DNA of 64,000 nucleotides from Bacteroidetes bacterium UBA6161 (GTDB lineage Bacteria; Bacteroidota; Bacteroidia; NS11-12g; UBA955). This document shows, piece by piece, positions 448 to 25,518 of the stretch. The notes below the pieces were generated by a model that worked only from the letters and a program-made list of their open reading frames with translations, ran no database searches and was not told the origin of the DNA. The position numbers were made by a program, and so were the translations under genes. Position 1 is the first letter of the stretch; the number at the start of each line of letters is the position of its first letter. Where the stretch lies: the NCBI GenBank assembly GCA_002422315.1, contig DIUJ01000068.1:30882-94881 (forward strand), in the 5' to 3' direction.

Positions 448-756
448 ATGGAAATTATCACAATGGAAAGCAATGCCTACAAGCTCCTGATTCAGAAGCT
501 CGACGAGGTACATGCAGAACTTAAAAAGCTACAAGACCCTGCCAAGGAATTGTCTCGGGAATGGGTAGATGCCTATGATGTTATGAATATGCTGCATATA
601 AGCAGACGTACATTAAGCAAGTACCTGCAATCTGGAAAACTACAGTATTCCAAAATTCAGAACAAAAACTACTTTAGGTTGAAGGACATCGAGGAGTTTT
701 TGATGCATAACCACCGTTCACGTGCTCGTATTAATCAAAATCATCATGGGGCTTAA
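448..756 (+). CDS. helix-turn-helix DNA-binding protein, excisionase/MerR-like (mobile-element Xis-like)
   Basis: 102 aa. The central segment 'DVMNMLHISRRTLSKYLQSGKLQYSKI' is a classic HTH. Position upstream of a primase is typical of Bacteroidetes integrative/mobilizable elements. Confidence 0.55.
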   Translation: MEIITMESNAYKLLIQKLDEVHAELKKLQDPAKELSREWVDAYDVMNMLHISRRTLSKYLQSGKLQYSKIQNKNYFRLKDIEEFLMHNHRSRARINQNHHGA

Positions 757-8202: not shown

Positions 8203-8239
8203 GCCCAACACAATATTGAATAATTAGAATAAAAGGATT

Positions 8240-9109
8240 ATGAATAACAAAGACATGATATTTAACATTTACTACGTGAACTTCCCAAAAGTTTACGAAA
8301 TAAAAATGATGCTCAACAACATGATTCTTTCTGGACAACAAATAGAGAAAGGTAAAAGTGTTGAGGGAGAAGCATACTTAAAAACAAAATTGGGCTTCAA
8401 TATCATGGACATTTTTAAACTTGGTGATGCGGAAGCAGGTGGAAACATTAAGGGTGCTGGTTCTAAAAAAGTTTTAGAAACCTTTGAAATAAAAACAACT
8501 AAATCAGTAATTCTAAACGAAATTGTTGAAAAGAGTAATAAGATTTCGGATTTAAAAAATATCAAAGAAGGAGAATTGATTCAAATTAATAATGTAAATC
8601 TATCGCTTGAAAATGAAGCGGAACTCAGAACAGTAAAATTGTTTACAAGCGGTTCTTTTAAAGGTCTTTCATTACCAGATACAAATGGTCTTGATATTAA
8701 CAACCTTTTCAATTCCATGTTTAAAGATTATGCTTATAAAATGAAAGGTTCATTAGACGGTTCAGAGGATGATTTGCTTGTGAAAATACCTTTCACTTTT
8801 GAGAACGAGTTTGAAAGTTCTTATAGTGTTGACGACCTCTTTATTGGTAAAGTCTCAATAATAGGTTTATACAAGGGAAAAATAAAAATTGACCAACTCC
8901 GTAATTCATTTGAATTTTATAAAGATTTGGGCGAATTAACTCAACTTCAAAATACTGGTGTAACAAGTAAAAATGAAGAAATTCAAGACAGCCAGTATAA
9001 AAAGGAAGATGTAAAGGATAATTTTTTTGCCAGTTCAAAATTTAGCGATAAAGAATTCCATTATATAGATCTTTTAGCCATTGTTCAAAATATTAGCATT
9101 CCTGAATAA
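8240..9109 (+). CDS. hypothetical protein (unknown function, inside the hsd operon)
   Basis: Intact 289-aa ORF, 38 nt after the RloC-like gene and 9 nt before the AAA+ gene. No recognisable motif. Confidence 0.5.
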   Translation: MNNKDMIFNIYYVNFPKVYEIKMMLNNMILSGQQIEKGKSVEGEAYLKTKLGFNIMDIFKLGDAEAGGNIKGAGSKKVLETFEIKTTKSVILNEIVEKSNKISDLKNIKEGELIQINNVNLSLENEAELRTVKLFTSGSFKGLSLPDTNGLDINNLFNSMFKDYAYKMKGSLDGSEDDLLVKIPFTFENEFESSYSVDDLFIGKVSIIGLYKGKIKIDQLRNSFEFYKDLGELTQLQNTGVTSKNEEIQDSQYKKEDVKDNFFASSKFSDKEFHYIDLLAIVQNISIPE

Positions 9110-9118
9110 TATAAAATT

Positions 9119-10318
9119 ATGGAAAAGGAGTTAACATATTTTGAGCGAATAGATTTCAACGAGTTCAGAGAGCTAAAAGAATCTGAAGGTTTTCTTATTG
9201 AAAGCATTTCAGATTATATAAAAGACAAAAATTTAATCGAACAAATTGATCCGCTCAATGTAATAATTGATATAACCGCATTATCTGGTTATTCAGCATC
9301 AATGCAAGCCTTTTCTGAAGAATTATTAATACCCTTTGACGATTCTATATTATTTATTGCTGATATTAAACACGAAGAAACCTTCAACTACGAACTAAGA
9401 TATTGCTTTACAAAAATTGATTACTGGAAATCTAAAAAAGACAAATCAGACGATAAAGTTGAGAATACAAATAAATCAAAAAGTAAGCACAAGAAAATAA
9501 CTGACCTATCAGAGGATGAGTTAGGGGTCTTCTTTCAAGAATTTAGAAAAAGTCTTTATGGACATGAAAAATTCAAAGATGATTTTTTTGATTTAACCAA
9601 GACTTTTAGGGTTTTCAATGGAATTAGGGAGCATAAAATATTATCACTTTTTTTACTTGGGGAATCAGGCGTTGGAAAAACGGAAGTTGCTAACTCTATT
9701 TACAAATGCTTGGGCGGAATGAAGAAACTTGCTAAAGTTAATTTCGGGAATTACAGTAGTGAGTTTTCATTAAGTTCACTTATAGGAAGTGCGCGAGGGT
9801 ATATCGGAAGTGATGATGGAGAAATATTTATCAGAGTTAGAGATACTGATATAGGAGTAATATTAATTGATGAATTTGAGAAGTCAAATGCAACTCTTTT
9901 TAACTACTTTTTAGATGTATTGGAAAGCGGTAAACTAGTCAGCTCTTTAGCTGAAGAAATTGACTTAGATGGCTTCATAATAGTTTTCACTTCAAATATT
10001 AGCAAAGAGGACTTTTCAAATAAGATTTCTCCAGAGCTAAGATCAAGGTTCGACTACAAATGTCAATTTACCTTACTCTATAATGAGGACAAGAAAAAAT
10101 ATGTTGAATTTAGGGTGAATAGTATTGTTAGAAAGGTAAATGAGAAATATAAAATACAATTAGAAGAGAACTTACATGAACGTTTTTTAACTCAAATCAA
10201 TGTTTCTGATTACAATAACATGAGAGATTTAAATAAAAAAATCAAAACAGTATTTGTTGATTATGTTACAAGCGAGAAATTAGCATTGCATGAACTCGAA
10301 AAAGAAATAAGCGAATAA
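9119..10318 (+). CDS. ClpA/ClpB D2-like (AAA_2-type) AAA+ ATPase with unknown ~170-aa N-terminal domain
   Basis: Walker A 'LLGESGVGKTEVANS'. 'VILIDEFEKSNATLFNYFLDVLESGKL' parallels ClpB D2 '[27 protein letters not shown]', and 'IIVFTSN' parallels the ClpB sensor region. Stop overlaps the hsdR start (TAATG). Confidence 0.6.
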   Translation: MEKELTYFERIDFNEFRELKESEGFLIESISDYIKDKNLIEQIDPLNVIIDITALSGYSASMQAFSEELLIPFDDSILFIADIKHEETFNYELRYCFTKIDYWKSKKDKSDDKVENTNKSKSKHKKITDLSEDELGVFFQEFRKSLYGHEKFKDDFFDLTKTFRVFNGIREHKILSLFLLGESGVGKTEVANSIYKCLGGMKKLAKVNFGNYSSEFSLSSLIGSARGYIGSDDGEIFIRVRDTDIGVILIDEFEKSNATLFNYFLDVLESGKLVSSLAEEIDLDGFIIVFTSNISKEDFSNKISPELRSRFDYKCQFTLLYNEDKKKYVEFRVNSIVRKVNEKYKIQLEENLHERFLTQINVSDYNNMRDLNKKIKTVFVDYVTSEKLALHELEKEISE

Positions 10319-13300
10319 TGAAATTCACAGAAGAAAAATTAGAAAAGGCATTTGCTGAGTTACTGGGACAAGAAGGATTTCCGCACTACACAGGCATTAC
10401 AATTTCTCGTAATCCAGATGAAGTATTGATTGAAGAAGATTTACAAAACTTCTTATTGTCGCAATATGCCCATCAAGGTATCACGATCAATGAAACCAAA
10501 TCGATTATTCTTCAACTCAAATCCCTTTCTGCTACTGATTTATACGAAAGCAACAAAACCTTTCTTAACATGCTTTCTGACGGTTTTATTTTGAAAAGAG
10601 AAGACCGCAACCAAAAAGACATTTACATACAATTAATTGATTATACAGGATTAAACAAACACCGTCAACCTGACGAAGAACAATTAATTTCAGTAGTAGC
10701 AGAAGGCAAAGGGGAATACGGAAAAGACAATAACATTTACAAATTTGTTAATCAACTAGAAATTGTTGGAACGGAAAAACGTATTCCTGATGGCATTGTG
10801 TACATCAATGGTTTGCCTTTGGTGGTGTTTGAGTTTAAAAGTGCCATACGTGAAGAAGCTGCCATTTTTGATGCATTCAAACAATTAACGGTTCGTTACC
10901 GCAGAGATATTCCCGAACTGTTTAAATACAACGCTTTTTGTGTGATAAGTGATGGCGTAAACAACAAAGCAGGTTCTTTTTTTGCTCCCTATGAGTTTTT
11001 CTACGCTTGGCGTAGAGTAGCAGGTTTGGCAAAAGATGTGGACGGTATAGACAGTATGTTTACCCTTATTCAAGGTATGTTTGATAAAAACCGTTTACGT
11101 GATATTATCCGAAACTTCATTTACATACCCGACAGCTCAAAGAAAAACGAAAAAATTGTGTGTCGCTATCCACAATATTATGCAGCAAGAGCCTTGTATG
11201 AGAATATAAAACATACACAAAAACCTGAAGGAGACGGTAAAGGAGGAACTTACTTTGGTGCCACAGGTTGCGGAAAAAGTTTTACCATGCTTTACCTCAC
11301 ACGTTTGTTAATGAAAAGCGAATACTTTGAAAGCCCAACCATAGTTTTAATAACAGATAGAACAGACCTTGACGACCAACTTTCGGGGCAATTCACCAAT
11401 GCCAAAAACTTTATTGGAGATAGTACAATCATAAGTGTAGAAAGTAGAGCGCATTTAAGAGAATTGGTACAAGGCAGACAAAGTGGCGGGGTTTTCCTTA
11501 CAACGATTCATAAGTTTACAGAAGATACCGAATTACTTACCGAAAGAACCAACGTAATTTGTATTTCAGATGAGGCACACAGAAGCCAAACCAACCTTGA
11601 CCAAAAAGTAAAAGTCACCGAAAAAGGTGTTACCAAATCTTATGGTTTTGCCAAATATTTACACGATTCTTTACCCAACGCAACCTTTGTTGGTTTCACA
11701 GGAACACCAATAGACGCAACCCTTGATGTATTTGGTAAAGTGGTAGATGCTTATACTATGACAGAGTCCGTAAAAGATGAAATTACTGTTCGGATAGTTT
11801 ATGAAGGTCGTGCAGCAAAAGTGGCGTTAAAAAACAGTGAATTAGAGAAAATCGAAAAATATTACGAAGAAGCAGCAGAATTAGGAGCAAACGATTATCA
11901 AATAGACAAAAGTAAACTCGAAACAGCCAATATGTACACGATTTTGGGTGACCCTGACCGTTTACGTGCCGTAGCAGAAGATTTTGTGAACCATTATGAA
12001 AAGCGAATTTCAGAAGGAGCAACTGTAAAAGGAAAAGCACTATTTGTAAGCAGTAGTCGTGAAATCGCTTATGAATTGTACAAAAATATAATAGCATTGA
12101 GACCTGAATGGGCTGAAATTAGAGAAGCAGAAGAAGGTATTGAATTAACCGATAAAGATAAAAGGGAATTAAAACCGATTGAGCGTGTAAAAATGGTAAT
12201 GACCAGAGGAAAAGACGACCCAAAAGAACTTTGGGATATGTTAGGCACTTCTGACGACCGAAAAGAACTCGACCGCCAATTTAAAAATCCGAAATCGAAT
12301 TTCAAAATAGCCATTGTAGTAGATATGTGGCTCACTGGTTTTGATGTACCTTTCTTAGATAGCATATACATTGATAAACCGATACAACAACACAATTTAA
12401 TTCAAACCATTTCAAGAGTAAACCGAAAATTTGAAGGCAAAAACAAAGGTTTGGTAGTGGATTATATCGGCATCAAAAAACAAATGAATTTGGCACTTGC
12501 CAAATACAACAAAGGTGACGAAGACAACTTTGAAGACATTACACAATCTTTAGTAGTAGTTAAGGACCATTTGGATTTATTAGCCAAATTGATGCACACA
12601 TTTGACAATACAAAGTATTTCAAAGGAAGTACCATAGAACAATTAAACACCTTAAACCTTAGTGCTGAATTTGTGCAAAAAACCAAAGATTCAGAAACCC
12701 GTTTTATGGGCTTAGTAAAGCGACTAAAAGCCGCTTATGATATTTGTGCAGGAAGTGAAAAACTAACCCAAGCAGAAAGAGACTACACACATTTCTATTT
12801 GGCTATTCGTTCCATTATTTTCAAATTAACCAAAGGTAATGCACCCGACACGGCACAAATGAACGCAAGAGTTCGGGAAATGATAAAAGAAGCCTTAGAA
12901 AGTGATGGTGTGGAAGAAATATTCAAACTTGGAGACGAAAACGAAACCGAACAAGATATTTTTGATGAAGATTATTTAGCCAAAATCAACAAAATCAAAT
13001 TACCCAACACAAAAATCAAATTACTTCAACAGCTATTGGCGAAAGTAATTGGAGAAATCAAAAAGGTAAACAAAGTAAAAGGAATTGATTTTTCAAAAAA
13101 GATGCAAGCCTTAGTTGAACGCTACAACCAGCGAGATGAGAATGATATACTCAGAAGCGAAGTATATGAGGAAATGGCAGATGCCTTAACTGAATTAATC
13201 TGGGAGGTTCACAAAGAATTTTCAGCAGGAGACGCATTAGGAATTGACTTTGAAGAAAAGGCCTTTTATGACATTCTAAAAGAACTTTGTATCAAATACG

Positions 13301-13530
13301 ACTTCAATTACCCAGACGACAAAATGATTGAATTGGCAAAAGCCGTGAAAGACTTAGTAGATGGTCAAGCCAAATTCCCTGATTGGAACAAACGTGACGA
13401 CATCAAATCAGCTTTGAAAGTTGGACTCATTCTCTTGCTTGACGAATTTGGCTATCCACCTGTAGAGAGAGACGAAGTATATGTGGAGATTTTTGAACAA
13501 GCAGAAAATTTTAAAAAGAATAGGGGGTAG
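10318..13530 (+). CDS. hsdR: Type I restriction enzyme R subunit (DEAD/DEAH helicase-nuclease)
   Basis: N-terminal 'IPDGIVYINGLPLVVFEFKS' (nuclease/HsdR_N). Motif I 'GATGCGKS', DEAH 'ISDEAHRSQ' and motif VI 'QTISRVNR'. 1070 aa. Confidence 0.9.
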   Translation: MKFTEEKLEKAFAELLGQEGFPHYTGITISRNPDEVLIEEDLQNFLLSQYAHQGITINETKSIILQLKSLSATDLYESNKTFLNMLSDGFILKREDRNQKDIYIQLIDYTGLNKHRQPDEEQLISVVAEGKGEYGKDNNIYKFVNQLEIVGTEKRIPDGIVYINGLPLVVFEFKSAIREEAAIFDAFKQLTVRYRRDIPELFKYNAFCVISDGVNNKAGSFFAPYEFFYAWRRVAGLAKDVDGIDSMFTLIQGMFDKNRLRDIIRNFIYIPDSSKKNEKIVCRYPQYYAARALYENIKHTQKPEGDGKGGTYFGATGCGKSFTMLYLTRLLMKSEYFESPTIVLITDRTDLDDQLSGQFTNAKNFIGDSTIISVESRAHLRELVQGRQSGGVFLTTIHKFTEDTELLTERTNVICISDEAHRSQTNLDQKVKVTEKGVTKSYGFAKYLHDSLPNATFVGFTGTPIDATLDVFGKVVDAYTMTESVKDEITVRIVYEGRAAKVALKNSELEKIEKYYEEAAELGANDYQIDKSKLETANMYTILGDPDRLRAVAEDFVNHYEKRISEGATVKGKALFVSSSREIAYELYKNIIALRPEWAEIREAEEGIELTDKDKRELKPIERVKMVMTRGKDDPKELWDMLGTSDDRKELDRQFKNPKSNFKIAIVVDMWLTGFDVPFLDSIYIDKPIQQHNLIQTISRVNRKFEGKNKGLVVDYIGIKKQMNLALAKYNKGDEDNFEDITQSLVVVKDHLDLLAKLMHTFDNTKYFKGSTIEQLNTLNLSAEFVQKTKDSETRFMGLVKRLKAAYDICAGSEKLTQAERDYTHFYLAIRSIIFKLTKGNAPDTAQMNARVREMIKEALESDGVEEIFKLGDENETEQDIFDEDYLAKINKIKLPNTKIKLLQQLLAKVIGEIKKVNKVKGIDFSKKMQALVERYNQRDENDILRSEVYEEMADALTELIWEVHKEFSAGDALGIDFEEKAFYDILKELCIKYDFNYPDDKMIELAKAVKDLVDGQAKFPDWNKRDDIKSALKVGLILLLDEFGYPPVERDEVYVEIFEQAENFKKNRG

Positions 13531-13531
13531 T

Positions 13532-13897
13532 ATGGAAGAAATAGAAAAGAGTGAAAGCAATAAGTTAATCATTATAGGAAATGGTTTTGACTTGTCGTTA
13601 AGAATTAAAACAAGTTATAAAGACTTTTTACTTTGGTTGTTGCAGAAGTATATAAAGAAGACTTATGAAAAGAAGCATGCAACTCATCCAAAATATAAGA
13701 TAATTAATCAATTGTCTAAAGAAGAAGAAAGATTAAAAGTGAACCTCCTTTCAGAAAACGGAGCTAAAACAGTATTAGTGCAGATGGGAAACCACAATGA
13801 AATGACAACACTGCCTCAATCAATATTAGGTAAGACAGATGTTCCATTTTATGGGAATAGTCAAATGTTGTTACAGAAATCGGTGTTGGGAGAGTAA
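13532..13897 (+). CDS. AbiH-like abortive-infection protein, N-terminal fragment (possibly truncated)
   Basis: Starts 'MEEIEKSESNKLIIIGNGFDLSLRIKTSYKDFL', matching the conserved N-terminus of the AbiH family (LIIGNGFDLxHGLxTxYxDF). Only ~122 aa against ~300+ for full AbiH. The track ORF start (13481) overlaps hsdR, so the ATG at 13532 is preferred. Confidence 0.4.
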   Translation: MEEIEKSESNKLIIIGNGFDLSLRIKTSYKDFLLWLLQKYIKKTYEKKHATHPKYKIINQLSKEEERLKVNLLSENGAKTVLVQMGNHNEMTTLPQSILGKTDVPFYGNSQMLLQKSVLGE

Positions 13898-13908
13898 AAA
13901 TTTGAAGT

Positions 13909-16344
13909 ATGGCAAAGAAAAAACATTTAAAATTATTAAGTGATAAACAACTTGAAGAAGTTGCCAAAATAGAGTTTAAATATGGGTTTGGTGGTAATGA
14001 AGACGATGAAGAAGAAAATACACAACCTAATTATTATAGACAAGCATCCAATCTTCGTGTAAGTATCGAAAACTTTTCAATTGAACAAGAGCAAAAATAT
14101 GCTCGGAAGGATAGAAGTCTTGAAATACCTGCGGATGTTGATTATATTCAAATTAACTTTGTGTCACAATTCGTAATTAGTAAATACTTTAATGAATATT
14201 ACAAGAAATTTGGACTTGAAGCAATAAATTTTTCCAATTTCGGGAAAACGGGTCTATTTGCAATTATCGAAAGAGATTTATTTCAGACATATCTTAATGA
14301 AATAAATAACTTTATTCAATTTGGGCTCAACCTTAATCCAGAGAGCAAATACGATAATTATGTTACTTATGTCAATGGTTTCAAGCTGTTAACAGCTAAA
14401 GACATTATACGCTTTAAAGTAGATGAAATCGGCAAAGTAGTTTGTCTCTCATTAGTTGAATTGCCCTTAGACTTAAAGTTACAATCACTCTTAATTGATT
14501 CATTAATTGCTTTTCTTGAAAGTAAAAATATATCATATTATTTTGACAAAACTGTAAACAGGATTGAACTATTAGATATACCCTTTGAGCAAGTACAGTT
14601 GATTGCGGAGAATTTCGACATCATCCAAAATGCCACCTGCTCTTTATCAACCATAGTAAGGCCATCTGAATTCAACTTTGTTAAAAGAGAATACGGTTTC
14701 AATATTTCAAATGCAGATGAAAATTTGCCAGTGATCGGAATTATTGATACAGGTATTAGTATGGATACACCCCTTAAATCCATTACAATTCAAGATGCCT
14801 CATTTAGTTTGGAAGGCAATCCTTTAATAGATGTTTCAGGCTATAAAAGAGAAGGTCACGGCACAGCAGTAGCGGCATTGGCTGCTTTAGGAAGGCTTAA
14901 TCATTTAAATAAGTTTCAAGGTGAAATAAGAGCAGATGCAAAACTTCTATCAATAAAATTGTTCGAAAGTGGCAATGGCTATTTATCCGAAACCCAAGTG
15001 GTAAAAATGCTGTATGATGCGAAAAGTAAGTACCCTCATATAAAGTTGTTCGTCTTAACTACTTGTTATGATAAGTTCAAAGCTAAAAACGAACCCTTTA
15101 GTTCTTACACTTATGAGTTAGACAAATTTGCTCATTCAACAGATAGTTTAATATTTATTTGCACTGCAAACAATAGAAATGCTATAAATGAGAATACTGA
15201 TTATGACTTGGCTTATTTCAATTCAGTACACACCAATCTTTCAACGCCAGCGGATAGTCTTAATAACGTTACTGTTGGTGCAGCCGCAGAGAATTTAAAC
15301 GGTGATACTTTTTATGGTATATCAAGTGGCAGAGAATACCCAACCCTATACTCACGAAAAGGGCATATAGACTTGGCAGCTGTTTTTCCTCGCAATAAGT
15401 CCAATAAAAATTATTTCAAACCAGATGTAATTGATTGCGGTGGCGATTTAGGTTTTTACAATCCTTCAGCTATTGATTACATTGATAATTCTGCGATGGC
15501 TGTTTTATCAGCACGCCCGGAATTGGGCTACATTTTAGAAACTGGCACAAGCTTGTCAGCTCCTTTAACCGCAAATTTAGCTGCAAAAATTTTAAAAGAA
15601 TATCCTCATATAAATGCTCAAACAGTTAAAGCACTTATTATAAATGGTGCATCTTTAAATAATATTCAATTTCCAAAACAGGTTAGTCATTTACTTAATG
15701 TTACAGCCGGTAACGGTTTTGTTGATGTTGAAGAAAGTTTGTTTTCCAATGAAAATAGAGCCACATTGATTTTGGAAGATGAGATTTCCAATACTGATCT
15801 AAAGATTTACCCAATAAACTTCCCTAAGTATTTAGTTGAACATGATTTAGGTCGTAAGAAAGGATTGGTAAAAATTACTGCAACATTGTGTTTTAGTTTC
15901 GAACCAATATTAAATAACCAACTATCATACAATCCTATTCATATGGCATTTAGTTTTTTCAAGAACCATAGTGCTGATGAAATTAATGCGAAAAATGATG
16001 ATTTTAATTCGAAACTAAGGTCTTCACTATCTTGGTCACAAAACGGTAGAAACGTTTCCAAACCAATTCCGTTTTCTAATTCTCAGAAAATCAATTTTAC
16101 TATTGATTTGAACCATTTAGTTACAGAAAATCAAGTGTTGAAATTAGCCGTTCATTGCAAGGTTTCAACTCAAATTGTTGGTGGTTTACCAGCAGGTTAT
16201 CCAAAGCAATTTCCATTTTCAATGGCTATAACTATAGAAGAAAATACTAAAAAGAAATCAGGCAAACTTTATGATGAACTGCGTGCAATAAACAACTTAG
16301 AAGTAATTAGTGATATTGAACTGGACAGTTCTATTGATGTATAA
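13909..16344 (+). CDS. subtilisin-like (S8) serine peptidase domain protein with unknown N- and C-terminal domains
   Basis: Catalytic triad in subtilase order: D 'IGIIDTGIS', H 'HGTAVAALAAL', S 'GTSLSAPLTA'. 811 aa. No signal peptide is apparent, so it is probably cytoplasmic. Confidence 0.7.
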   Translation: MAKKKHLKLLSDKQLEEVAKIEFKYGFGGNEDDEEENTQPNYYRQASNLRVSIENFSIEQEQKYARKDRSLEIPADVDYIQINFVSQFVISKYFNEYYKKFGLEAINFSNFGKTGLFAIIERDLFQTYLNEINNFIQFGLNLNPESKYDNYVTYVNGFKLLTAKDIIRFKVDEIGKVVCLSLVELPLDLKLQSLLIDSLIAFLESKNISYYFDKTVNRIELLDIPFEQVQLIAENFDIIQNATCSLSTIVRPSEFNFVKREYGFNISNADENLPVIGIIDTGISMDTPLKSITIQDASFSLEGNPLIDVSGYKREGHGTAVAALAALGRLNHLNKFQGEIRADAKLLSIKLFESGNGYLSETQVVKMLYDAKSKYPHIKLFVLTTCYDKFKAKNEPFSSYTYELDKFAHSTDSLIFICTANNRNAINENTDYDLAYFNSVHTNLSTPADSLNNVTVGAAAENLNGDTFYGISSGREYPTLYSRKGHIDLAAVFPRNKSNKNYFKPDVIDCGGDLGFYNPSAIDYIDNSAMAVLSARPELGYILETGTSLSAPLTANLAAKILKEYPHINAQTVKALIINGASLNNIQFPKQVSHLLNVTAGNGFVDVEESLFSNENRATLILEDEISNTDLKIYPINFPKYLVEHDLGRKKGLVKITATLCFSFEPILNNQLSYNPIHMAFSFFKNHSADEINAKNDDFNSKLRSSLSWSQNGRNVSKPIPFSNSQKINFTIDLNHLVTENQVLKLAVHCKVSTQIVGGLPAGYPKQFPFSMAITIEENTKKKSGKLYDELRAINNLEVISDIELDSSIDV

Positions 16345-16347
16345 ATC

Positions 16348-17373
16348 TTACTTATTGAGTGCTTGTTTTTCAGCTTCAACAAGTTCCTTCCATATTTGAG
16401 TATCAATTTTGCCACTCAATTTTTTTTCAGGTTCTTTTGCTGCAAATAAGCTTCTTTTAATGGCAGTAATCAATGTTTTTTGAATGCTGTAGTAGGAAAG
16501 ACCCAGGCATTCTTTTATTATTTTGTTCGCAATAATTTTTTTGTCAAATGAGAATACACCATTCTTCAGGGTTAATGCAATTAACTCTTGTATCTCCTTT
16601 TCATTCGGCAATTTAAATTCAATGATATTATCAAATCTTCTAATCAAGGCTTCATCAAGCATATCTTTTTGATTTGTAGCAGCTATAACGATACTACTTT
16701 GCGGTAGGTAATCAAAAAGTTGAAGAATTGTGTTTACAACTCGTTTCATCTCTCCGTGATCTTGGCTATAATCTCTTATTTTTCCAAGACTATCAAATTC
16801 ATCTAAAAATATGATACAATCTTCTATCGCAGCTTTCTTGAAGATTTTAGATAGGTTTTTGCTTGTTTCACCTAATTTCGAAGAAACAATAGCCCCGAGA
16901 TTAATAACAACCATCATTTTCTTTAACTCTCCTGCAATAACATAAGAAGCCAGTGTTTTTCCGCAACCGGAAGGTCCGTACATTAAAACTTTATTGGCTA
17001 CAGGCAACTCAAACCTTCTAAGGATTTCAATCTTTTGGTGTTCTTCAATGAAAAATTTTAGCTCGTTTTTTACACTTCCCTCTGCAATAATATTTTCAAG
17101 TGTATAGTCCGATGTTACTTTCTCAAGAATTAATTCAGCAATTTCTCTGTCATCCAACTTCTGGTAATAATTGTCAGAGCCAACTTTGGTAAGCGTGTTT
17201 GTGCCTTGCTGTTTTATTGCATCTTTCAGTATAGATTGGAGCTGAATTGCAAAATTTAGTTTTTTAGTTTTCTTTGAATGTTCAATAAGTTCATTGAGTA
17301 CAGACAATAGCCTTTCCTGGTCATTTTCAAGACCGAATTTGGCTATATCTTTTATGTATTCAAACTGACTCAT
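16348..17373 (-). CDS. classical AAA ATPase (SRH-containing, FtsH/CDC48-clade-like)
   Basis: Walker A 'YGPSGCGKT', Walker B 'IIFLDEFDSL', and SRH with Arg fingers 'IAATNQKDMLDEALIRRFD'. Convergent with the S8 gene and 3 bp from it. Confidence 0.75.
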   Translation of the reverse strand: MSQFEYIKDIAKFGLENDQERLLSVLNELIEHSKKTKKLNFAIQLQSILKDAIKQQGTNTLTKVGSDNYYQKLDDREIAELILEKVTSDYTLENIIAEGSVKNELKFFIEEHQKIEILRRFELPVANKVLMYGPSGCGKTLASYVIAGELKKMMVVINLGAIVSSKLGETSKNLSKIFKKAAIEDCIIFLDEFDSLGKIRDYSQDHGEMKRVVNTILQLFDYLPQSSIVIAATNQKDMLDEALIRRFDNIIEFKLPNEKEIQELIALTLKNGVFSFDKKIIANKIIKECLGLSYYSIQKTLITAIKRSLFAAKEPEKKLSGKIDTQIWKELVEAEKQALNK

Positions 17374-17647
17374 TGTTTAAAAACTATGGCACAAAGATAA
17401 TTGATTTAAATCGAAAATCAGAATCAATAAGGCCTTTTTTGAAAACCTGTGCTTTATGTCTATTTATGTGAATATTGTCAATTATAGAGCGACTAATGGT
17501 GTATTAATGTGCCTCTATTTTTACGAATAAACTCATTGGAAAATCTGTTGTTTGAAGATATTATACTAAAAAAAACATATCTCTATAAGAAAAAGAATTG
17601 GCTAAAAACATTACTTTTTTGAGGCATATACAGCAAGTTCGTTAGTT

Positions 17648-20068
17648 TTACCTCATCAAATGCACAGATATATTTTCTGTAACAGATCTAAAAGGTGCAG
17701 CACCAGTTTCAATTGAATTGAAAGTTACACGTACAATATATACCCCAGATTGGACTTGTTGTCCTTTGTATGACCCGTCCCATGCTGCTTGCGGGTCTTG
17801 GCTATCGAAGAGGAGTTCTCCCCAACGGTTATAGACGGTCATTCTTGATACTATCCAGCCTTCTGCAACTGGTCTGTAGGTGTCGTTTTTTCCGTCTCCA
17901 TTGGGAGAAAATGAATTGGGCATGTATATACCGTATTGTTTGAAATAGGGCATGCACTCACTTATTTCTTCACATTCTCCCCGGGTAACTCTCACAGCAA
18001 AAAGCCCATTGTATGGTGGATGGAAATCTTGCGAATCTGCTCCTTCAACAGTTGTGAAATTGTTGTTACAATCATACCACTGATAATTTGCTCCCGAAGG
18101 CAATGCCCTCAAAATGGGTAAACGCTCTTCAATTCTTGCAACAATGGGAGGATAAAACGAAATTTCTACAGTAGATAAACTATCACAACCTTCAGTTGTA
18201 CTTAGTGTATCAGTATATCTACCCTCACTATTTAAGATTCTACCATTAAAATTGTAGGTCTCGCCCTCACAAAGAAAAACGGGTAGAATAAACTCAGGTG
18301 CAGGGGTGACAGTGATGTTGGTAGTAACAATACTATCACAACCCTCAGTAGTTTTAATTGTGTCCACATAAGTGCCGCTTTCCCAGTATTCGTTGTTTGC
18401 AATGCTATAGCTTTGACCTGCGCAAATAGTTACATCAATCAATGTGTCTGGAGGAGGCAATACAATAAGGTGGGTATAGACAATGCTATCGCAACCCTGA
18501 TAGGAAGTAAACGTATCGAGAAAATCGCCACTAACTGAGTGTTCTTTATTGCCCACCCAAAAGCTAGAACCTGAGCAAATAATTAGGGTATCGTTGCTCA
18601 CAAAAGTGTCTGTGCAATTGGCGAATTTGCATATAAATCCATTTTGATAGCCTTTAGCAATAAGGGTTTTGGAGGAATCTCCGGGGTCAAATTCAACTGT
18701 GTCTGCAAAAACACCTGCCACATAGAGTGCTCCATAAGAACCCTTATACACGGCATTGCCTCTATCATTCATTTTTCCTCCCATACTTTTTGCCCATACA
18801 AACTCTCCAAGACTATCATACTGGGCAACAAAAATATCTGTAGCTCCGTTAGAAGTTAAAAAGTAATTATTTGAGTTTGGGTCAAAATCAACTGTGTTAG
18901 AAAAATATCCGACTAGTAATATGTTATTTTGATTGTCAATAGTTAGACTAGATAATGTAGCAAACATTAGATTAGATTCAGACGCAAAATGTTTTACCCA
19001 ATTTAGTTGTCCATTCGAATCGTATTTAGCTAAAAATAAATCAAAAGCATTTGGTTTATTTGATGTTAAGCGATAGTTGCTTATTCCTGTGTCTAGATTT
19101 ATTGTTCCAGTAAACCTACCCCAAGCAATTACTTCTCCGCTATTATTAGTTCCTGATATAATAAAAGGATTACTATTTGAATTAGTTATTTGTTTAACCC
19201 ATTTAAAATCACCCCATATATCTAATTTTAGTATAAACTGATTGGAATTATTTATAGGTGAGGAGGTTAGTATCTCCCCCTCAAAATCAACTATACCTCT
19301 AAAATGTCCTGAAATAATTACATTATCAAATGAATCTATGCTTAGACTTGATGACCACTCATCACCAGTTCCCCCATATTTTTTTGCCCATTTGAATTCT
19401 CCTTCTGAGTTTAACTTTAAAATAAAAATATCATTATTACTTCCTGCCGAAGTTAATCTGAATTCGATTAATGTATCTGGATTAAAGTCAATAGACCTTT
19501 TAAACCATCCAGAAATGTAGATATTAGAATGTTTGTCAATTTTCAATAATGGCCATAAGATTGTAGAGTTATTTTCGATTGCGTTTGTTTTCTTTACCCA
19601 AATAAAACCCCCATTTTGATTAATTTTCAAAACAAAAAGTTCTCTTGAATTTGTTTTTGTAGATAAAACATTTGAACCGCCACTAGGATTAAAATCTATA
19701 TTCCCAATAAACTCTCCCGCAATAACAAGGTGTCCAACAGTATCAATTGCAATGGAAACAGCTTTGGAGCTTGTGTTTGAACCAACTACACCAACCTTTT
19801 TTGCCCAAACAAAATTTCCATTCTTATCTAATTTAGAAATAAATCCTAAACTAGTGCTTACTGTATTTAATAAAAAGGAGTTTTCTCCTGGGTCAAAATC
19901 GACTATACCATTAAAAGCGCCCACACTATATACATTCCCAGAGTCATCTATCACCATACTATAGATTTGCGCATTATCCCCCTCAAACCCCTTTACCCAT
20001 TGCATATTTTGAGCATTAGTAATTGTTGCAAAGAGTATGAATAGATACAGAGAAAGTGCTTTTTTCAT
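17648..20068 (-). CDS. secreted beta-propeller-repeat protein with T9SS type-B (gliding-motility/CHU_C) C-terminal domain
   Basis: Signal peptide 'MKKALSLYLFILFATITNA'. Repeated 'G..F..W.K' beta-propeller units and Cys-rich repeats. C-terminal 'MPNSFSPNGDGKNDTY...IVRV'. Confidence 0.7.
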   Translation of the reverse strand: MKKALSLYLFILFATITNAQNMQWVKGFEGDNAQIYSMVIDDSGNVYSVGAFNGIVDFDPGENSFLLNTVSTSLGFISKLDKNGNFVWAKKVGVVGSNTSSKAVSIAIDTVGHLVIAGEFIGNIDFNPSGGSNVLSTKTNSRELFVLKINQNGGFIWVKKTNAIENNSTILWPLLKIDKHSNIYISGWFKRSIDFNPDTLIEFRLTSAGSNNDIFILKLNSEGEFKWAKKYGGTGDEWSSSLSIDSFDNVIISGHFRGIVDFEGEILTSSPINNSNQFILKLDIWGDFKWVKQITNSNSNPFIISGTNNSGEVIAWGRFTGTINLDTGISNYRLTSNKPNAFDLFLAKYDSNGQLNWVKHFASESNLMFATLSSLTIDNQNNILLVGYFSNTVDFDPNSNNYFLTSNGATDIFVAQYDSLGEFVWAKSMGGKMNDRGNAVYKGSYGALYVAGVFADTVEFDPGDSSKTLIAKGYQNGFICKFANCTDTFVSNDTLIICSGSSFWVGNKEHSVSGDFLDTFTSYQGCDSIVYTHLIVLPPPDTLIDVTICAGQSYSIANNEYWESGTYVDTIKTTEGCDSIVTTNITVTPAPEFILPVFLCEGETYNFNGRILNSEGRYTDTLSTTEGCDSLSTVEISFYPPIVARIEERLPILRALPSGANYQWYDCNNNFTTVEGADSQDFHPPYNGLFAVRVTRGECEEISECMPYFKQYGIYMPNSFSPNGDGKNDTYRPVAEGWIVSRMTVYNRWGELLFDSQDPQAAWDGSYKGQQVQSGVYIVRVTFNSIETGAAPFRSVTENISVHLMR

Positions 20069-20170
20069 AGTTAGCTTGTTTCAAAAGTAGTGAATATAAT
20101 TTAAAAAATAAACCATCTCCTATTCTTTCATTGAATAAGAGATGGTAAAAAATAGCATATAGTTGCCTTT

Positions 20171-22849
20171 CTAAAGCACTATTATCTTGTGTATTTCAAC
20201 TTTATTATCCATACTGACTTTAAGCAAATATACTCCTGCTGCCAGATTAAAGGTAGTGCGCCCTTTTGCGCTGCTTGTTTGAATAAGTCTTCCATCAACC
20301 GTATAGAGTTCGTAAGCAATATCACCCATTTCAGGAGAATTAGGAGTTGATACAATTGTAACTCCACCGCCAACAGGGTCAATAAGTAAGCTTACATTTA
20401 CCAAATTGTTGTCTTGGATTTTTTCAAAGTATTTTTTTTGGTTTTCGGGTCTAATCAAGGGCGCAAAGTCTTCATCCTCAAAAAATTCAAAATCTTCTTC
20501 GCCATCCATCCCTTCTTCACCGTCTTCTCCTTCTTCACCAGTTACTTCGTCATATTCAATAGGCTCTCTTGGACCATAGGGATTTAAGCCACTTCCACTC
20601 CAGCTACCAGCTCCCGAAAACCTGTAATTATAATAACAGTTTGAAGTTTCAACACGTGATTTGCTAGGGTCATCAAAATCAGTTAAAACGCCTACTTGGG
20701 TTGGGTAAACTTCTGGTTCATATTCAAAAAGTTTCCAAGTGTTAGTACCATCGTAAAAAGATATTATGGTCTTTGAGCCAGTCATAGAAACCACATTTGC
20801 TCCAACTCCAAGATATGAAATTCCAGGTTTGTAGCCAACTAAATCTGTAATACCTAACATTTTTTTAACCATAATGTCATATAAACTACCATCCCTCATA
20901 TAACAGTTGAATCTAATATTTGGACTACCTGTTTGAGTGTAATATAAAACTTGTTGACCATGATGACTTTCTTCGTAATAGACAGGAAAGCTTGAGCCAT
21001 TTGTAGGGTCGATAAATCTAAAGTTATTAGCATCTGCTTGAATACCAGATGTTCCGTTGAGCGAATATAATTGTTCAAACACTTTATTACAATTGCATAT
21101 TTCTATTGTATATGAAGGGGGAGGGGGTTGACAAAAAGTCCATTTATTGCTTCCCAAGTTACATGCGATTAGAGCATCAACAGTAGTTAAACTTAATCCA
21201 TCATAATAATTATTTGCCAAAGGAAGGGTTAAATACTTCGTTGAATATCCTCCTATTCCTCCTCTTCCTGCTCTTCCTCCTTTGATACTAACTTTAGAGG
21301 AAAGAGATTGGTTTCCAGTTGAGTTTTTCATAATCCAAATAGTTCCGCTGTTTCCTCCGTTACCTCCATCACCTCCTTGCGCACCAACGCCACTTAAACC
21401 TGTACCGCCAACACCTCCAGATGGAACAATATCTCCTGAATTACAACCACCTGCTGTACCATCCCCACCATTTCCACCTCTTCCTCCATCTCCACCTGTT
21501 TGTCCTGTCCTTCCGTTTTCTCCATCTACAAAAAGAAACTTAGTGCTTACATTAACTATGTATGATTTTGCTTTTAATAATATTATTCCACCACCTCGAG
21601 CAGCAGGGGCGGCTTTTCCACCAGGGTTACCGTCAAAACCAGAAAAGCCAGGTTGTGCCTGAAAAGGAGCTGGAAGAAATGTTTCTAATGAATTTACACC
21701 ACCATCACCTCCATATCCACCTGCACCTGCTCCGTCACCTCCACTAATTCCAGGCAAGCCTGCATCACCCATTCGCAATGTTGTCCAATTACTAGACCTA
21801 TCAGGGTCACTTGGCGAATATATTTCTACATCATTAAAATCAGTATTTGTGCCTTGATCGCGGTTGCTATCATCTGGCCCCTCTCCGTTATCTCCATTTC
21901 TTATATTAGTTAGTGGATTTGCTGTTAAATTGAGATCATCAAAACTAAATTCTAATGCAGAACCTCCCCCAGTTTTGCATAAATATCCATGTTTATTAAT
22001 ATCATTTATATCAATTGGAGGATCTGTCCCTGCTGGCATAGGAACACCATTTCCTGGAGTATATGCATTATCAATTGGGCCTGCATGAGGTCCACCAGGC
22101 CAACCACCATTTGCTGAAGAGTTTTTTGCTGGAGCTGCATTTCCTACCCCTCCTTGCCCAATTAGAGGAGTGCTACTAGACCAACCAACATGATATCCTT
22201 TTGCTGCAGAATTAATTATACCACCATTGAAATTTAATTCATTTGCAACAATCAATGCTGTAATCCCACCAGTTCCATCTTCATGGTCATAAGGACGACA
22301 AGTTAGTTCTCCTCCTGGATCCAAATCCATATCCCAATAAATGGGAACTCTGCTAATTTGTATTCTATCATTAGCAGTTACTGAGAAAGTCGGAAGCCCG
22401 TAAGGAGCAACAACCCTTAATATTTTTGTAGAACAATTATATGAAACAATGGTAACCCTTGTGTGATTTCCAACAGTAGTGGTTCCAGATGTAGTATGGT
22501 CTTCCATCTGAATCAATAAACACCATTTGTCACTACTAAATGCTAAACTACAAGGATGGATATAGTTTGGAACATCATCCCAATCTTTTGGAGGAGCAAT
22601 TTCAATATCATATATATCTGGAGAAGAACTGACTAGGGTAATATCTAAAACTCTTGCCCTGTTATCATCCGTATATACTTTTGTGTTTATTGCAATACTT
22701 GAAGCATCAACTTCTGGATTTCCTGAACCGGAAGGCCAACCTGCAAACTGACCTAGAACGTTTGAAGCAAAAAACATAAATAATGTTAGAACTGGATAAT
22801 ATTTGTAACCACCAATCTTGCTTTTTAATAATCGTATTTTATTTTTCAT
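20171..22849 (-). CDS. large Gly-rich secreted protein with T9SS type-A (Por_Secre_tail) C-terminal domain
   Basis: N-terminal TM/signal. Long 'GGxGGxGG' tracts. C-terminal 'GVYLLKVSMDNKVEIHKIIVL'. Confidence 0.65.
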   Translation of the reverse strand: MKNKIRLLKSKIGGYKYYPVLTLFMFFASNVLGQFAGWPSGSGNPEVDASSIAINTKVYTDDNRARVLDITLVSSSPDIYDIEIAPPKDWDDVPNYIHPCSLAFSSDKWCLLIQMEDHTTSGTTTVGNHTRVTIVSYNCSTKILRVVAPYGLPTFSVTANDRIQISRVPIYWDMDLDPGGELTCRPYDHEDGTGGITALIVANELNFNGGIINSAAKGYHVGWSSSTPLIGQGGVGNAAPAKNSSANGGWPGGPHAGPIDNAYTPGNGVPMPAGTDPPIDINDINKHGYLCKTGGGSALEFSFDDLNLTANPLTNIRNGDNGEGPDDSNRDQGTNTDFNDVEIYSPSDPDRSSNWTTLRMGDAGLPGISGGDGAGAGGYGGDGGVNSLETFLPAPFQAQPGFSGFDGNPGGKAAPAARGGGIILLKAKSYIVNVSTKFLFVDGENGRTGQTGGDGGRGGNGGDGTAGGCNSGDIVPSGGVGGTGLSGVGAQGGDGGNGGNSGTIWIMKNSTGNQSLSSKVSIKGGRAGRGGIGGYSTKYLTLPLANNYYDGLSLTTVDALIACNLGSNKWTFCQPPPPSYTIEICNCNKVFEQLYSLNGTSGIQADANNFRFIDPTNGSSFPVYYEESHHGQQVLYYTQTGSPNIRFNCYMRDGSLYDIMVKKMLGITDLVGYKPGISYLGVGANVVSMTGSKTIISFYDGTNTWKLFEYEPEVYPTQVGVLTDFDDPSKSRVETSNCYYNYRFSGAGSWSGSGLNPYGPREPIEYDEVTGEEGEDGEEGMDGEEDFEFFEDEDFAPLIRPENQKKYFEKIQDNNLVNVSLLIDPVGGGVTIVSTPNSPEMGDIAYELYTVDGRLIQTSSAKGRTTFNLAAGVYLLKVSMDNKVEIHKIIVL

Positions 22850-22992
22850 AATGACTTTTATTTAGTTAAACTCAACTGTCTAACAAAGACAGTAATTAAA
22901 ATTTCAAATTGAGAACTTATACTCCCAATTTGCTTTGTAATTTTAGTAGCTATAAGAATTGCACGAACCAAAGAAATCATGCATTTTATAAA

Positions 22993-23340
22993 TTCGTTTT
23001 CATAGTCCTTTTTCGGACAGCGAACAATGTGGTAAATAGCTATATTATTAAAATGAGAACTAAAAAGGACAAAACAGCAAATTCTGCGGCAAGCATAATT
23101 GAATCTGCCATAATAGTAATGAACTCTACTGACTTGGTCGGTTGCCGAGCAGCTGTTCTGTCCTTCTCCATGGGGTCTTGAATAGCTAATTCAATTTCCT
23201 ATAGAGGCAAGTTTTTATAAGCTTATTTGCAATACAAATTACAGTTAATAAACATTAGATTACCAAACATATTGAATGAATAAAACAAATTTCAGGAAAT
23301 TCCCTGAGATAAACTCTCAGGAAATTTCCTGAATATTTTT
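22993..23340. repeat. direct repeat copy 1 (~345 bp) ending in a 40-bp hairpin + T-run
   Basis: About 95% identical to 28397-28740. Contains 'ttcaggaaattccctgag ataaact ctcaggaaatttcctgaa' followed by 'tatttttt'. Confidence 0.85.
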
Positions 23341-23751
23341 TAATTTAACTCCTGTTTTAAGGAGTATTTATATTTCATTTCATAGTAAAAAAATAAAAAC
23401 TATGACTCTGCCACTCACCTGTAATTGTAAAAATTGGACTGTAAAACAAAAAATAGTTCTTAATACTATTGGAATGGTTCAACATGATATTGTTTGATAT
23501 CATTCAGTTGTATTCTAAAACTTGAAGCAGAGAGTGGGTAAATTGATTAAACCTTTACCCAGGAAAATTAATTACTACATTATCAAATGGAAATCTTTAA
23601 TTTCCATTCTTTGTGTAGGGTTTAGCTTTTTGCAAAATTATTCCGCTACCTCATGTTGCAGGAATATTTACTCTATTTTTAAGGAATTTTGAGAAGTTTT
23701 TTCTCTCGTTCCTATTTCACAAGTTGTTAAAAGAAAAGTTAGCAAAGGGAG

Positions 23752-25494: not shown

Positions 25495-25518
25495 ATTACA
25501 AACAAAGATAGCATAAAA

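What the first reader, a model, noticed from the sequence alone, without database searches (positions are those of the whole stretch)
13909..17373. Cytoplasmic S8 subtilase abutting a convergent classical AAA ATPase (Iet-like pairing)
An 811-aa protein with an intact D/H/S subtilase triad and no signal peptide sits tail-to-tail, 3 bp apart, with a 341-aa AAA ATPase. The ATPase has SRH/Arg fingers 'ATNQKDMLDEALIRRFD'. ATPase plus subtilase pairs are the content of the Gao et al. 'Iet' (ietA/ietS) anti-phage system. The placement right after an R-M operon and an AbiH fragment fits that reading. Unusually the two genes are convergent rather than operonic. The subtilase also carries a ~250-aa unknown N-terminal domain and a ~250-aa C-terminal extension. 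Those may be sensor and effector parts.
Basis: partly seen in the sequence, partly recalled or inferred. Interest (0 to 1): 0.7.

Follow-up and report, generated by a model that had tools for sequence, protein, structure and literature searches.

The report
Convergent Iet protease–ATPase defence pair
This is a real Iet-type toxin–antitoxin / anti-phage gene pair (a cytoplasmic subtilisin-like protease plus an AAA ATPase), from a Bacteroidota-centred lineage in which the protease gene has been flipped so the two genes face each other; this is a modest variation on a known system.

Summary
An 811-aa S8 subtilase (13909-16344, +) has an intact D280/H317/S548 triad and no signal peptide. It ends 3 bp from the stop of a convergent 341-aa classical AAA ATPase (16348-17373, -). 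PADLOC models name them IetS (E=2.8e-38) and IetA (E=3.4e-70). A profile comparison with canonical IetS gives 99.9% probability, in register from the N-terminal region into the C-terminal domain.

The convergent layout is a lineage trait, not an accident. Every locus whose IetA is at least 61% identical to the window's and whose ietS region could be read has the protease gene convergent. That is 15 tips in the IetA tree plus three loci fetched later, from Bacteroidota, one Ignavibacteriaceae and one IMG/VR contig. Stops lie -12 to +13 bp apart where both genes are intact. These IetAs form an exclusive clade. All 46 more distant loci in the tree, and the three plasmid examples checked, are co-directional ietA→ietS.

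The flanking domains are family features. The N-terminal region is two ferredoxin-like, prodomain-like modules. The C-terminal domain is a β-sandwich. Neither looks like an added effector.

ietA has its own Bacteroidota-type promoter. ietS mostly lacks one and often follows R-M or BREX genes.

Verdict: a new architectural variant of a known system, of moderate interest.

The parts
13909..16344 (+). ietS-like gene: 811-aa cytoplasmic S8 subtilase, the putative toxin/effector
   Evidence: ORF. Pfam Peptidase_S8 E=4.1e-25. PADLOC IetS E=2.8e-38. hhalign to canonical IetS 99.9%. No signal peptide.
13909..14694 (+). IetS N-terminal region (aa 1-262): a disordered acidic linker (aa 25-38), a long helix, then two ferredoxin-like β-α-β-β-α-β modules. 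It is prodomain-like and is the most variable part of the protein.
14695..15738 (+). IetS S8 catalytic domain (aa 263-610). Codons: D280 at 14746-14748, H317 at 14857-14859, S548 at 15550-15552.
15739..16263 (+). IetS C-terminal β-sandwich domain (aa 611-785), followed by a short tail
16345..16347 (.). 3-bp spacer between the two converging stop codons. There is no intergenic terminator.
   Evidence: Sequence. No terminator-like site between the genes. Only weak inverted repeats. The stop-to-stop distance is -12 to +13 bp in the clade.
16348..17373 (-). ietA-like gene: 341-aa classical-clade AAA ATPase, the putative antitoxin. Walker A lies at 16954-16977, Walker B at 16792-16803, and the second region of homology with its Arg fingers at 16630-16680.
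   Evidence: Pfam AAA E=1.2e-31. PADLOC IetA E=3.4e-70 over aa 3-315. Nearest solved structures are VAT/p97/Cdc48 D2 domains, E~1e-46. Motifs.
17392..17399 (-). Bacteroidota-type -7 promoter box (TATCTTTG), ending 18 nt upstream of the ietA ATG
   Evidence: Motif hit. A TAnnTTTG box lies 6-24 nt upstream of the ietA start in 13 of 14 convergent-clade loci, and upstream of ietS in only 1 of 14.
13736..17444 (.). Conserved DNA block: 95% identical to L088 across the whole span. The core 13909-17416 is 86% identical to L090, running from the ietS ATG to just past the ietA promoter.
   Evidence: blastn.
13481..13897 (+). Context: a chimeric scar ORF. An AbiH N-terminal fragment is fused to the last 53 codons of brxL, and the ORF ends 11 bp before ietS.
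   Evidence: Pfam AbiH on aa 29-80, and PADLOC BrxL on aa 86-135 (HMM positions 628-677 of 680). 83% identical to the C-terminus of the intact BrxL in L088.

Best explanation
This is a two-gene Iet-family toxin–antitoxin / abortive-infection module.

IetS is a cytoplasmic subtilisin-like protease and acts as the toxin. IetA is a classical (Cdc48/VAT-like) AAA ATPase and acts as the antitoxin, holding IetS in check in an ATP-dependent way. Phage infection disables, diverts or depletes IetA, either through a phage protein or through loss of ietA expression. IetS is then free to cleave essential cell or phage proteins, which aborts the infection.

This lineage differs in one respect. A single inversion of ietS turned the usual ietA→ietS operon into a convergent pair with abutting or overlapping 3' ends. 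ietA therefore has its own consensus Bacteroidota promoter. ietS depends on a weaker promoter or on read-through from the defence operon upstream of it; in the window that is the type I R-M operon.

Shown here: family homology, intact catalytic motifs, cytoplasmic location, clade-wide conservation of the pair and of its orientation, the ietA promoter motif, and the mobile/defence context.

Inferred from studied homologues: the toxin and antitoxin roles, and abortive infection.

Speculative: the prodomain-like N-terminal region as the part through which IetS is regulated, and any regulatory effect of convergent transcription.
For: Family homology:
- PADLOC IetA E=3.4e-70 and IetS E=2.8e-38.
- IteA and IteS are the top NCBIfam hits.
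- The clade profile aligns to the canonical IetS profile at 99.9% probability, E=2.8e-36, columns 28-687 against 18-647.
- IetA aligns over its full length with Agrobacterium pTi, Klebsiella and Hymenobacter IetA.

Intact machinery:
- The triad D280/H317/S548 is invariant in 52 sequences.
- Walker A, Walker B and the Arg fingers are conserved.

Co-conservation with changing flanks:
- Dysgonomonas, Chryseobacterium and Mangrovibacterium.
- L008-L018.
- L088 and L090.
- IMG/VR contig L093, beside an integrase.

Single origin of the convergent form:
- In an NJ tree of IetA the 15 convergent loci form an exclusive clade. Distances are at most 0.36 within the clade and at least 0.72 to any co-directional locus.

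Promoter:
- A TAnnTTTG box lies 6-24 nt upstream of ietA in 13 of 14 loci, and upstream of ietS in 1 of 14.

Decay pattern typical of toxin-antitoxin modules:
- L017 has a truncated ietS with an intact ietA.

Function of homologues, from the literature:
- The protease is the toxin and the ATPase is the antitoxin (PMC5006074, PMC8562856, PMC13069673).
- ietAS acts by abortive infection and is triggered by a phage protein (bioRxiv 10.1101/2022.08.27.505566).
Against: - There are no experimental data for this clade.
- Both proteins fall far below the NCBIfam equivalog cut-offs: 106 against 900 bits for IteS, and 200 against 510 bits for IteA. IetA is only 27-32% identical to canonical IetA over the full-length alignment. 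Conservation of function is therefore an extrapolation.
- The IetS HMM hits cover mainly aa 225-671. The N-terminal region is aligned only at low confidence.
- Parts of the catalytic domain around S548 are poorly modelled, with pLDDT below 50 at aa 458-515 and 526-547. Active-site geometry was therefore not verified.
- The mechanism of canonical ietAS itself is still described as unknown (PMC13069673).
- The pore-loop-1 position, which is F, Y or L in co-directional IetA, is Lys in all 15 convergent IetA. This could mean a different mode of action.
Confidence: 0.8

Rival explanations
1. The pair mainly acts as an addiction (post-segregational killing) module that stabilises the mobile or defence island carrying it. 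It is not chiefly an anti-phage system.
For: IetAS was first described as a plasmid-stabilising toxin-antitoxin system on pTiC58, and its SGI1 homologue promotes island maintenance (PMC5006074, PMC13069673). The clade's loci sit beside integrases, relaxases, IS elements and VapE-like primases. The window carries a Toprim/AAA_25 primase-like gene at 722-2827.
Against: In the window and in four other convergent loci (5 of about 15 overall) the pair lies directly after or inside R-M or BREX operons. Homologues protect against phages by abortive infection (10.1101/2022.08.27.505566; PMC13069673). The two roles are not mutually exclusive.
Confidence: 0.25
2. IetA is an activator, not an inhibitor. 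The AAA unfoldase would remove or remodel the prodomain-like N-terminal region of a zymogen IetS upon a phage cue. ATPase activity would then switch the protease on.
Confidence: 0.1
3. The two genes are unrelated neighbours: a protease with some other role and an independent AAA ATPase that happen to abut.
For: They are transcribed from opposite strands, so there is no operon evidence in the window itself.
Against: The same convergent pair, with stops -12 to +13 bp apart, recurs in more than 15 loci from different families with unrelated flanks. Both proteins are homologous to the two components of Iet. The conserved DNA block ends exactly at the outer edges of the pair.
Confidence: 0.02

Closest known systems
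ietAS / Gao_Iet anti-phage system (Gao et al. 2020). Tested homologues come from Bacillus cereus and E. coli.
   Same: It has the same two components: a classical AAA ATPase of about 330-390 aa, and a cytoplasmic S8 protease of about 750-840 aa with an N-terminal region, a catalytic domain and a C-terminal β-rich region. The best HMM hits are IetA and IetS. It lies in a defence island.
   Different: The genes are convergent with abutting 3' ends, not an ietA→ietS operon. Identity is low: 27-32% for IetA over the full-length alignment, about 18% over the IetS profile alignment. Both fall below the NCBIfam equivalog cut-offs. Pore-loop-1 carries Lys. Anti-phage activity has not been tested.
IetAS toxin-antitoxin system of Agrobacterium pTiC58, SgiAT (S026/S025) of Salmonella SGI1, and the Mycoplasma TA132/133 module
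   Same: Protease toxin and AAA-ATPase antitoxin logic, carried on mobile elements (PMC5006074, PMC8562856). An Agrobacterium pTi homologue aligns over the full length of IetA.
   Different: Those systems are operons with the antitoxin gene upstream and little or no intergenic space (PMC8562856). Here the two genes must have separate promoters.
ietHAS (Liu-DS4), an ietAS variant with an added SNF2 helicase
   Same: It is another architectural variant of Iet, which shows that the family tolerates rearrangement (PMC13069673).
   Different: No third gene is conserved here. The conserved block contains only ietS and ietA, and the flanks differ between loci.
Abortive-infection modules embedded in type I R-M loci (the PrrC/EcoprrI paradigm). 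This is an analogy from general knowledge only.
   Same: In L010 the pair sits between hsdS and hsdR. In the window, L008, L088 and L090, ietS directly follows R-M or BREX genes on the same strand.
   Different: No physical or functional link to R-M or BREX was shown. About two thirds of the clade's loci have no adjacent R-M or BREX genes.

Membership tests
Iet (ietAS / Gao_Iet) | An ATPase component homologous to IetA (classical AAA with Walker A/B and Arg fingers) | tested here: met
   PADLOC PDLC02196 E=3.4e-70, aa 3-315 against HMM positions 3-308 of 374. Full-length alignment with plasmid IetA. Motifs intact.
Iet (ietAS / Gao_Iet) | A protease component homologous to IetS (S8 subtilase with an intact triad and the family's N- and C-terminal regions) | tested here: met
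   PADLOC PDLC02197 E=2.8e-38. hhalign 99.9% over columns 28-687. D280/H317/S548 invariant.
Iet (ietAS / Gao_Iet) | The two genes are adjacent and co-conserved as a module | tested here: met
   More than 15 loci with different flanks. The shared DNA block ends at the edges of the pair.
Iet (ietAS / Gao_Iet) | Operon organisation, with ietA upstream of and co-directional with ietS | tested here: not met
   Convergent, with stops 3 bp apart. All 46 co-directional loci in the IetA tree and the three plasmid examples read A→S.
Iet (ietAS / Gao_Iet) | Meets the NCBIfam IteA/IteS equivalog score cut-offs | tested here: not met
   IteS scores 106 bits against a cut-off of 900. IteA scores 199.8 bits against a cut-off of 510. 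This is a divergent subfamily, not an equivalog.
Iet (ietAS / Gao_Iet) | The protease is toxic and the ATPase neutralises it | not testable with these tools
   Known only for homologues (PMC5006074, PMC8562856, PMC13069673).
Iet (ietAS / Gao_Iet) | Protects against phage and depends on the catalytic Ser | not testable with these tools
   Known only for homologues (10.1101/2022.08.27.505566; PMC13069673).
Secreted or housekeeping subtilases | An N-terminal signal peptide or T9SS sorting domain | tested here: not met
   No hydrophobic N-terminus: score 0.31, against 2.58 for the neighbouring T9SS protein. No sorting-domain hits.
Housekeeping AAA ATPases (FtsH, Cdc48/VAT, PAN, CdvC) | Reaches the family cut-off and has the family's architecture | tested here: not met
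   All are far below their cut-offs: CdvC 88 against 650, CDC48 88 against 803, FtsH 77 against 600. The protein has a single AAA domain, no protease or membrane domain, and a variable mobile context.

The most novel reading that the evidence does not exclude
The inversion is functional, not neutral. In this lineage the toxin gene has been uncoupled from its antitoxin and placed on the transcripts of whatever R-M or BREX operon lies upstream. ietS starts 11 bp after the preceding gene in the window, in L088 and in L090, and in L010 it sits between hsdS and hsdR. The antitoxin runs from its own strong promoter, and the overlapping 3' ends allow convergent-transcription or antisense control. The pair would then act as a back-up abortive-infection layer tied to first-line R-M/BREX immunity, which would be a new regulatory design for a protease-based toxin-antitoxin system.
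Probability: 0.15. Interest if true: 0.6.

Novelty: new variant of a known kind. Interest (0 to 1): 0.4.

Why it matters
Iet is a widespread defence system whose mechanism is still unknown. It is one of the few in which a protease is the effector.

A natural lineage that keeps both proteins but breaks the operon is informative. It shows that co-transcription and translational coupling of toxin and antitoxin are not required. That gives an experimental handle on how the ratio of the two proteins is set.

The work also defines a Bacteroidota-centred subfamily (111 representatives at 50% identity with E≤1e-30). Equivalog-level annotation misses it and labels these proteins only as 'S8 family peptidase' or 'ATP-binding protein'.

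The prodomain-like N-terminal region suggests a concrete hypothesis about how IetS is kept inactive, and that hypothesis can be tested. For this particular window the practical result is a better annotation of a defence island.

Tried and rejected
- The sigma-70 promoter scan was uninformative: 21 sites found against 18.9 expected. It is also inappropriate for Bacteroidota.
- The terminator scan and the inverted-repeat search found no convincing terminator at the gene junction.
- TAnnTTTG is not enriched window-wide (88 found against 97 expected). Only its fixed position upstream of ietA across loci carries weight.
- A PDB sequence search found no solved Iet structure.
- Pfam has no family for the IetS N- or C-terminal regions, in either the window protein or Agrobacterium IetS.
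- A Foldseek search of the N-terminal model against viral structures gave only low-TM hits, at most 0.30.
- The afdb50 fold library was unavailable.
- The Gao 2020 and Yamamoto 2009 papers are not in the library. What is said about them comes from papers that cite them.
- I considered and rejected a secreted-protease reading, a housekeeping AAA reading and a chance-adjacency reading (see the membership tests and rival explanations).
- I looked for a conserved third gene, by analogy with the ietH helicase. None exists within the conserved block.
Full report
**1. Observation**

The ORF list shows an 811-aa ORF at 13909-16344 (+) and a 341-aa ORF at 16348-17373 (-). The sequence reads TAA (16342-16344), 'atc', then 'tta', the reverse-strand stop. 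The genes converge with a 3-bp spacer.

The first protein matches Pfam Peptidase_S8 (E=4.1e-25, aa 274-589). The second matches Pfam AAA (E=1.2e-31).

The catalytic residues are D280 (IIDTG), H317 (GHGT) and S548 (GTSLS). The triad residues are invariant in an alignment of 52 homologues.

The protease has no hydrophobic N-terminus. Its best 10-residue hydropathy in the first 40 residues is 0.31. The adjacent T9SS-sorted protein, which has a clear signal peptide, scores 2.58.

**2. What it is**

PADLOC's defence HMMs give IetA as the best hit for the ATPase (PDLC02196, E=3.4e-70, covering aa 3-315). They give IetS for the protease (PDLC02197, E=2.8e-38, aa 225-671; other IetS models reach aa 790). 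NCBIfam's best hits are the anti-phage IteA and IteS equivalogs, but both fall far below the curated cut-offs (200 against 510 bits; 106 against 900 bits). The proteins are therefore family members but not close relatives of the characterised ones.

IetA aligns end to end with the IetA of an Agrobacterium Ti plasmid, a Klebsiella plasmid and a Hymenobacter plasmid, at 27-32% identity.

I compared a profile of the window's IetS subfamily with a profile of 20 canonical IetS proteins. The result was 99.9% probability (E=2.8e-36) over columns 28-687 against 18-647. The alignment is in register from the N-terminal region through the catalytic domain and into the C-terminal domain. Canonical IetS proteins are 750-836 aa long. 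The '~250-aa extensions' are therefore the normal architecture of the family.

No Iet protein has a solved structure. The nearest solved relatives of IetA are the D2 domains of VAT, p97 and Cdc48.

**3. Structure of the protease**

The AlphaFold2 model of the full protein has pLDDT 72 and pTM 0.77, built on 52 sequences. It shows three parts:
- a confident N-terminal region (aa ~40-245);
- a subtilase core;
- an all-β C-terminal domain (aa ~617-778).

The N-terminal region is the most variable part of the protein. Identity among distant clade members is 46%, against 64% for the catalytic domain and 62% for the C-terminal domain.

Parts of the catalytic domain (aa 421-445, 458-515, 526-547) are modelled poorly.

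**4. The convergent layout is a clade character**

Three homologues at about 57% IetS identity, from Dysgonomonas termitidis, Chryseobacterium turcicum and a Mangrovibacterium MAG, show the same layout: S8(+) facing a 341-aa AAA(-), with unrelated flanks.

I then scanned one genome per GTDB species with an IetA alignment, which returned 80 loci. tblastn of IetA and IetS against these loci gave a clean split:
- Every locus whose IetA is at least 61% identical to the window's (L008-L018) has the protease gene on the opposite strand, just past the 3' end of ietA. These come from Saprospiraceae, Chryseobacterium, Chitinophagales, Kaistella, Polaribacter, Sphingobacterium, Sunxiuqinia, Bacteroidales, Flavobacteriaceae and one Ignavibacteriaceae.
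- Every other locus with a detectable S8 partner is co-directional ietA→ietS. In these the best-segment IetA identity to the window is 28-45%.

Where both genes are intact, the stop-to-stop distance in the convergent group is -12 to +13 bp.

In a neighbour-joining tree of 71 IetA sequences, the 15 convergent loci form an exclusive clade on a long stem. Distances are at most 0.36 within the clade and at least 0.72 to any other sequence.

Inverting ietS in place is enough to turn A→S→ into A→←S. One ancestral inversion therefore explains the pattern; this step is inference.

Within the clade IetA stays 61-83% identical while IetS falls to 30-61%.

A whole-library search found 111 representatives at 50% identity with E≤1e-30, most matching over their full length. 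Canonical IetS proteins appear only at about 1e-20 to 1e-28 and only through the catalytic region.

All experimentally studied Iet systems that I could read about are operons with the ATPase gene first (PMC5006074, PMC8562856, PMC13069673). I found no description of a convergent form.

**5. Expression signals**

The Bacteroidota -7 promoter motif TAnnTTTG lies 6-24 nt upstream of the ietA start codon in 13 of 14 convergent loci. In the window it is TATCTTTG at 17392-17399 on the minus strand. It occurs upstream of ietS in only 1 of 14 loci. A few others carry the one-mismatch variant TATCTTTA.

The DNA block shared with an 86%-identical relative runs exactly from the ietS ATG (13909) to 43 bp upstream of the ietA ATG (17416). 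The conserved unit thus carries the ietA promoter but no ietS promoter.

In the window, L088 and L090, ietS begins 11 bp after the stop of the preceding co-directional gene.

No terminator-like structure separates the two genes.

My inference is that ietA is expressed autonomously. ietS would be expressed weakly or by read-through, and the two transcription units run into each other. Whether that has regulatory consequences is untested.

**6. Context**

The pair closes a defence island. In order, the island contains:
- hsdM (3313-4878);
- hsdS (4868-5989);
- an AAA_13 protein, PADLOC candidate PDC-S06, with a weak PrrC hit (5989-8202);
- PDC-M37A and PDC-M37B (8240-10318);
- hsdR (10318-13530).

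The small ORF just upstream of ietS (13481-13897) is a scar. Its N-terminal part is an AbiH fragment. Its last 53 residues are 83% identical to the C-terminus of the intact BrxL that precedes ietS in the 96%-identical relative L088. A BREX operon once preceded ietS here and has been deleted or replaced.

Other clade members show similar neighbours:
- L090 follows a PglZ-containing BREX-like operon.
- L010 has the pair between hsdS and hsdR, and L008 has it after an hsdR fragment.
- The rest sit beside integrases, a relaxase, IS elements or a VapE-like primase.

Some loci are decaying. L017 has a truncated ietS with an intact ietA. L019 has a frameshifted ietA and no ietS.

The downstream genes carry T9SS sorting domains, which places the host in Bacteroidota.

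**7. Mechanism**

In studied homologues the protease is the toxin and the ATPase is the antitoxin. Deleting or mutating the ATPase is lethal or cannot be cloned. Protease activity is needed for defence. The Bacillus cereus system acts by abortive infection and is triggered by expression of a single phage protein. The molecular mechanism is still called unknown (PMC8562856; PMC13069673; bioRxiv 10.1101/2022.08.27.505566).

I therefore commit to the following model. IetA uses ATP to keep the cytoplasmic protease IetS inactive. Phage infection removes that restraint, and IetS proteolysis aborts the infection.

My confidence levels are:
- about 0.85 that this is an Iet-family toxin–antitoxin/defence module;
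- about 0.6 that it protects against phage in its host;
- about 0.3 for the mechanistic details.

One difference could matter. The pore-loop-1 position is F, Y or L in co-directional IetA and Lys in all 15 convergent IetA.

**8. Verdict**

The suggestion that the terminal domains are added sensor and effector parts is not supported.

This is a new architectural variant of a known system and not a new kind of system. I set interest at 0.4. The finding is useful for annotation and offers a natural experiment on toxin/antitoxin coupling, but a specialist would not find it very surprising.

Noticed in passing
window 13481-13897: A chimeric scar ORF. An AbiH N-terminal fragment (aa ~28-80) is fused in frame to the last 53 codons of brxL, which are 83% identical to the intact BrxL of L088. 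This marks a deletion that removed a BREX operon once located upstream of ietS.
   Followed up: yes
window 3313-13530: A type I R-M operon (hsdM, hsdS, hsdR) with three extra genes between hsdS and hsdR. They are an AAA_13 protein (PADLOC candidate PDC-S06, weak PrrC hit) at 5989-8202, and PDC-M37A and PDC-M37B at 8240-10318. These are candidate defence genes embedded in the R-M locus.
   Followed up: partly
window 722-2827: A 701-aa protein with Toprim_2 and AAA_25 domains, of the primase/helicase type found on mobile elements. This suggests the defence island sits on an integrated element.
   Followed up: no
L010 936-11014; L008 8768-10944: In a Chitinophagales MAG the convergent Iet pair lies inside a type I R-M operon, in the order hsdM-hsdS-ietS> <ietA-hsdR. 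In a Saprospiraceae MAG, ietS follows an hsdR fragment and a DUF5655 protein. Together with the window, L088 and L090, about 5 of 15 convergent loci have ietS co-directional with R-M or BREX genes.
   Followed up: partly
L017 6063-7189; L019 5001-6012; L020: Decaying copies. L017 keeps an intact ietA but only a frameshifted C-terminal part of ietS (residues 470-811). L019 has a frameshifted ietA and no ietS. L020 has a partial ietA and no ietS.
   Followed up: partly
window 16867-16893 (IetA aa 161-169, VSSKLGETS): The pore-loop-1 position is Lys in all 15 convergent-clade IetA. It is F, Y or L (once M) in the co-directional IetA sequences.
   Followed up: partly
L093 1-5082 (IMG/VR UViG_3300013105_000829): A contig classed as viral carries an integrase followed by the convergent pair: ietA, then an 825-aa ietS overlapping it by 4 bp. 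The protease also hits PHROG 3964 (function unknown, E=1e-55). IetS-like proteins therefore occur on phage or prophage sequences.
   Followed up: partly
proteins P0172-P0206; L016 6017-8650: A subgroup of IetS relatives is 845-905 aa long and matches the query in 2-4 separate stretches, which implies insertions within the protein. L016 has an 877-aa example.
   Followed up: no
window 17648-28026: Four large minus-strand genes encode T9SS-sorted proteins. They carry Bac_Flav_CTERM, Por_Secre_tail or CHU_C domains, and one has SBBP β-propeller repeats. This marks the host as Bacteroidota, and the defence island ends abruptly at 17444.
   Followed up: no
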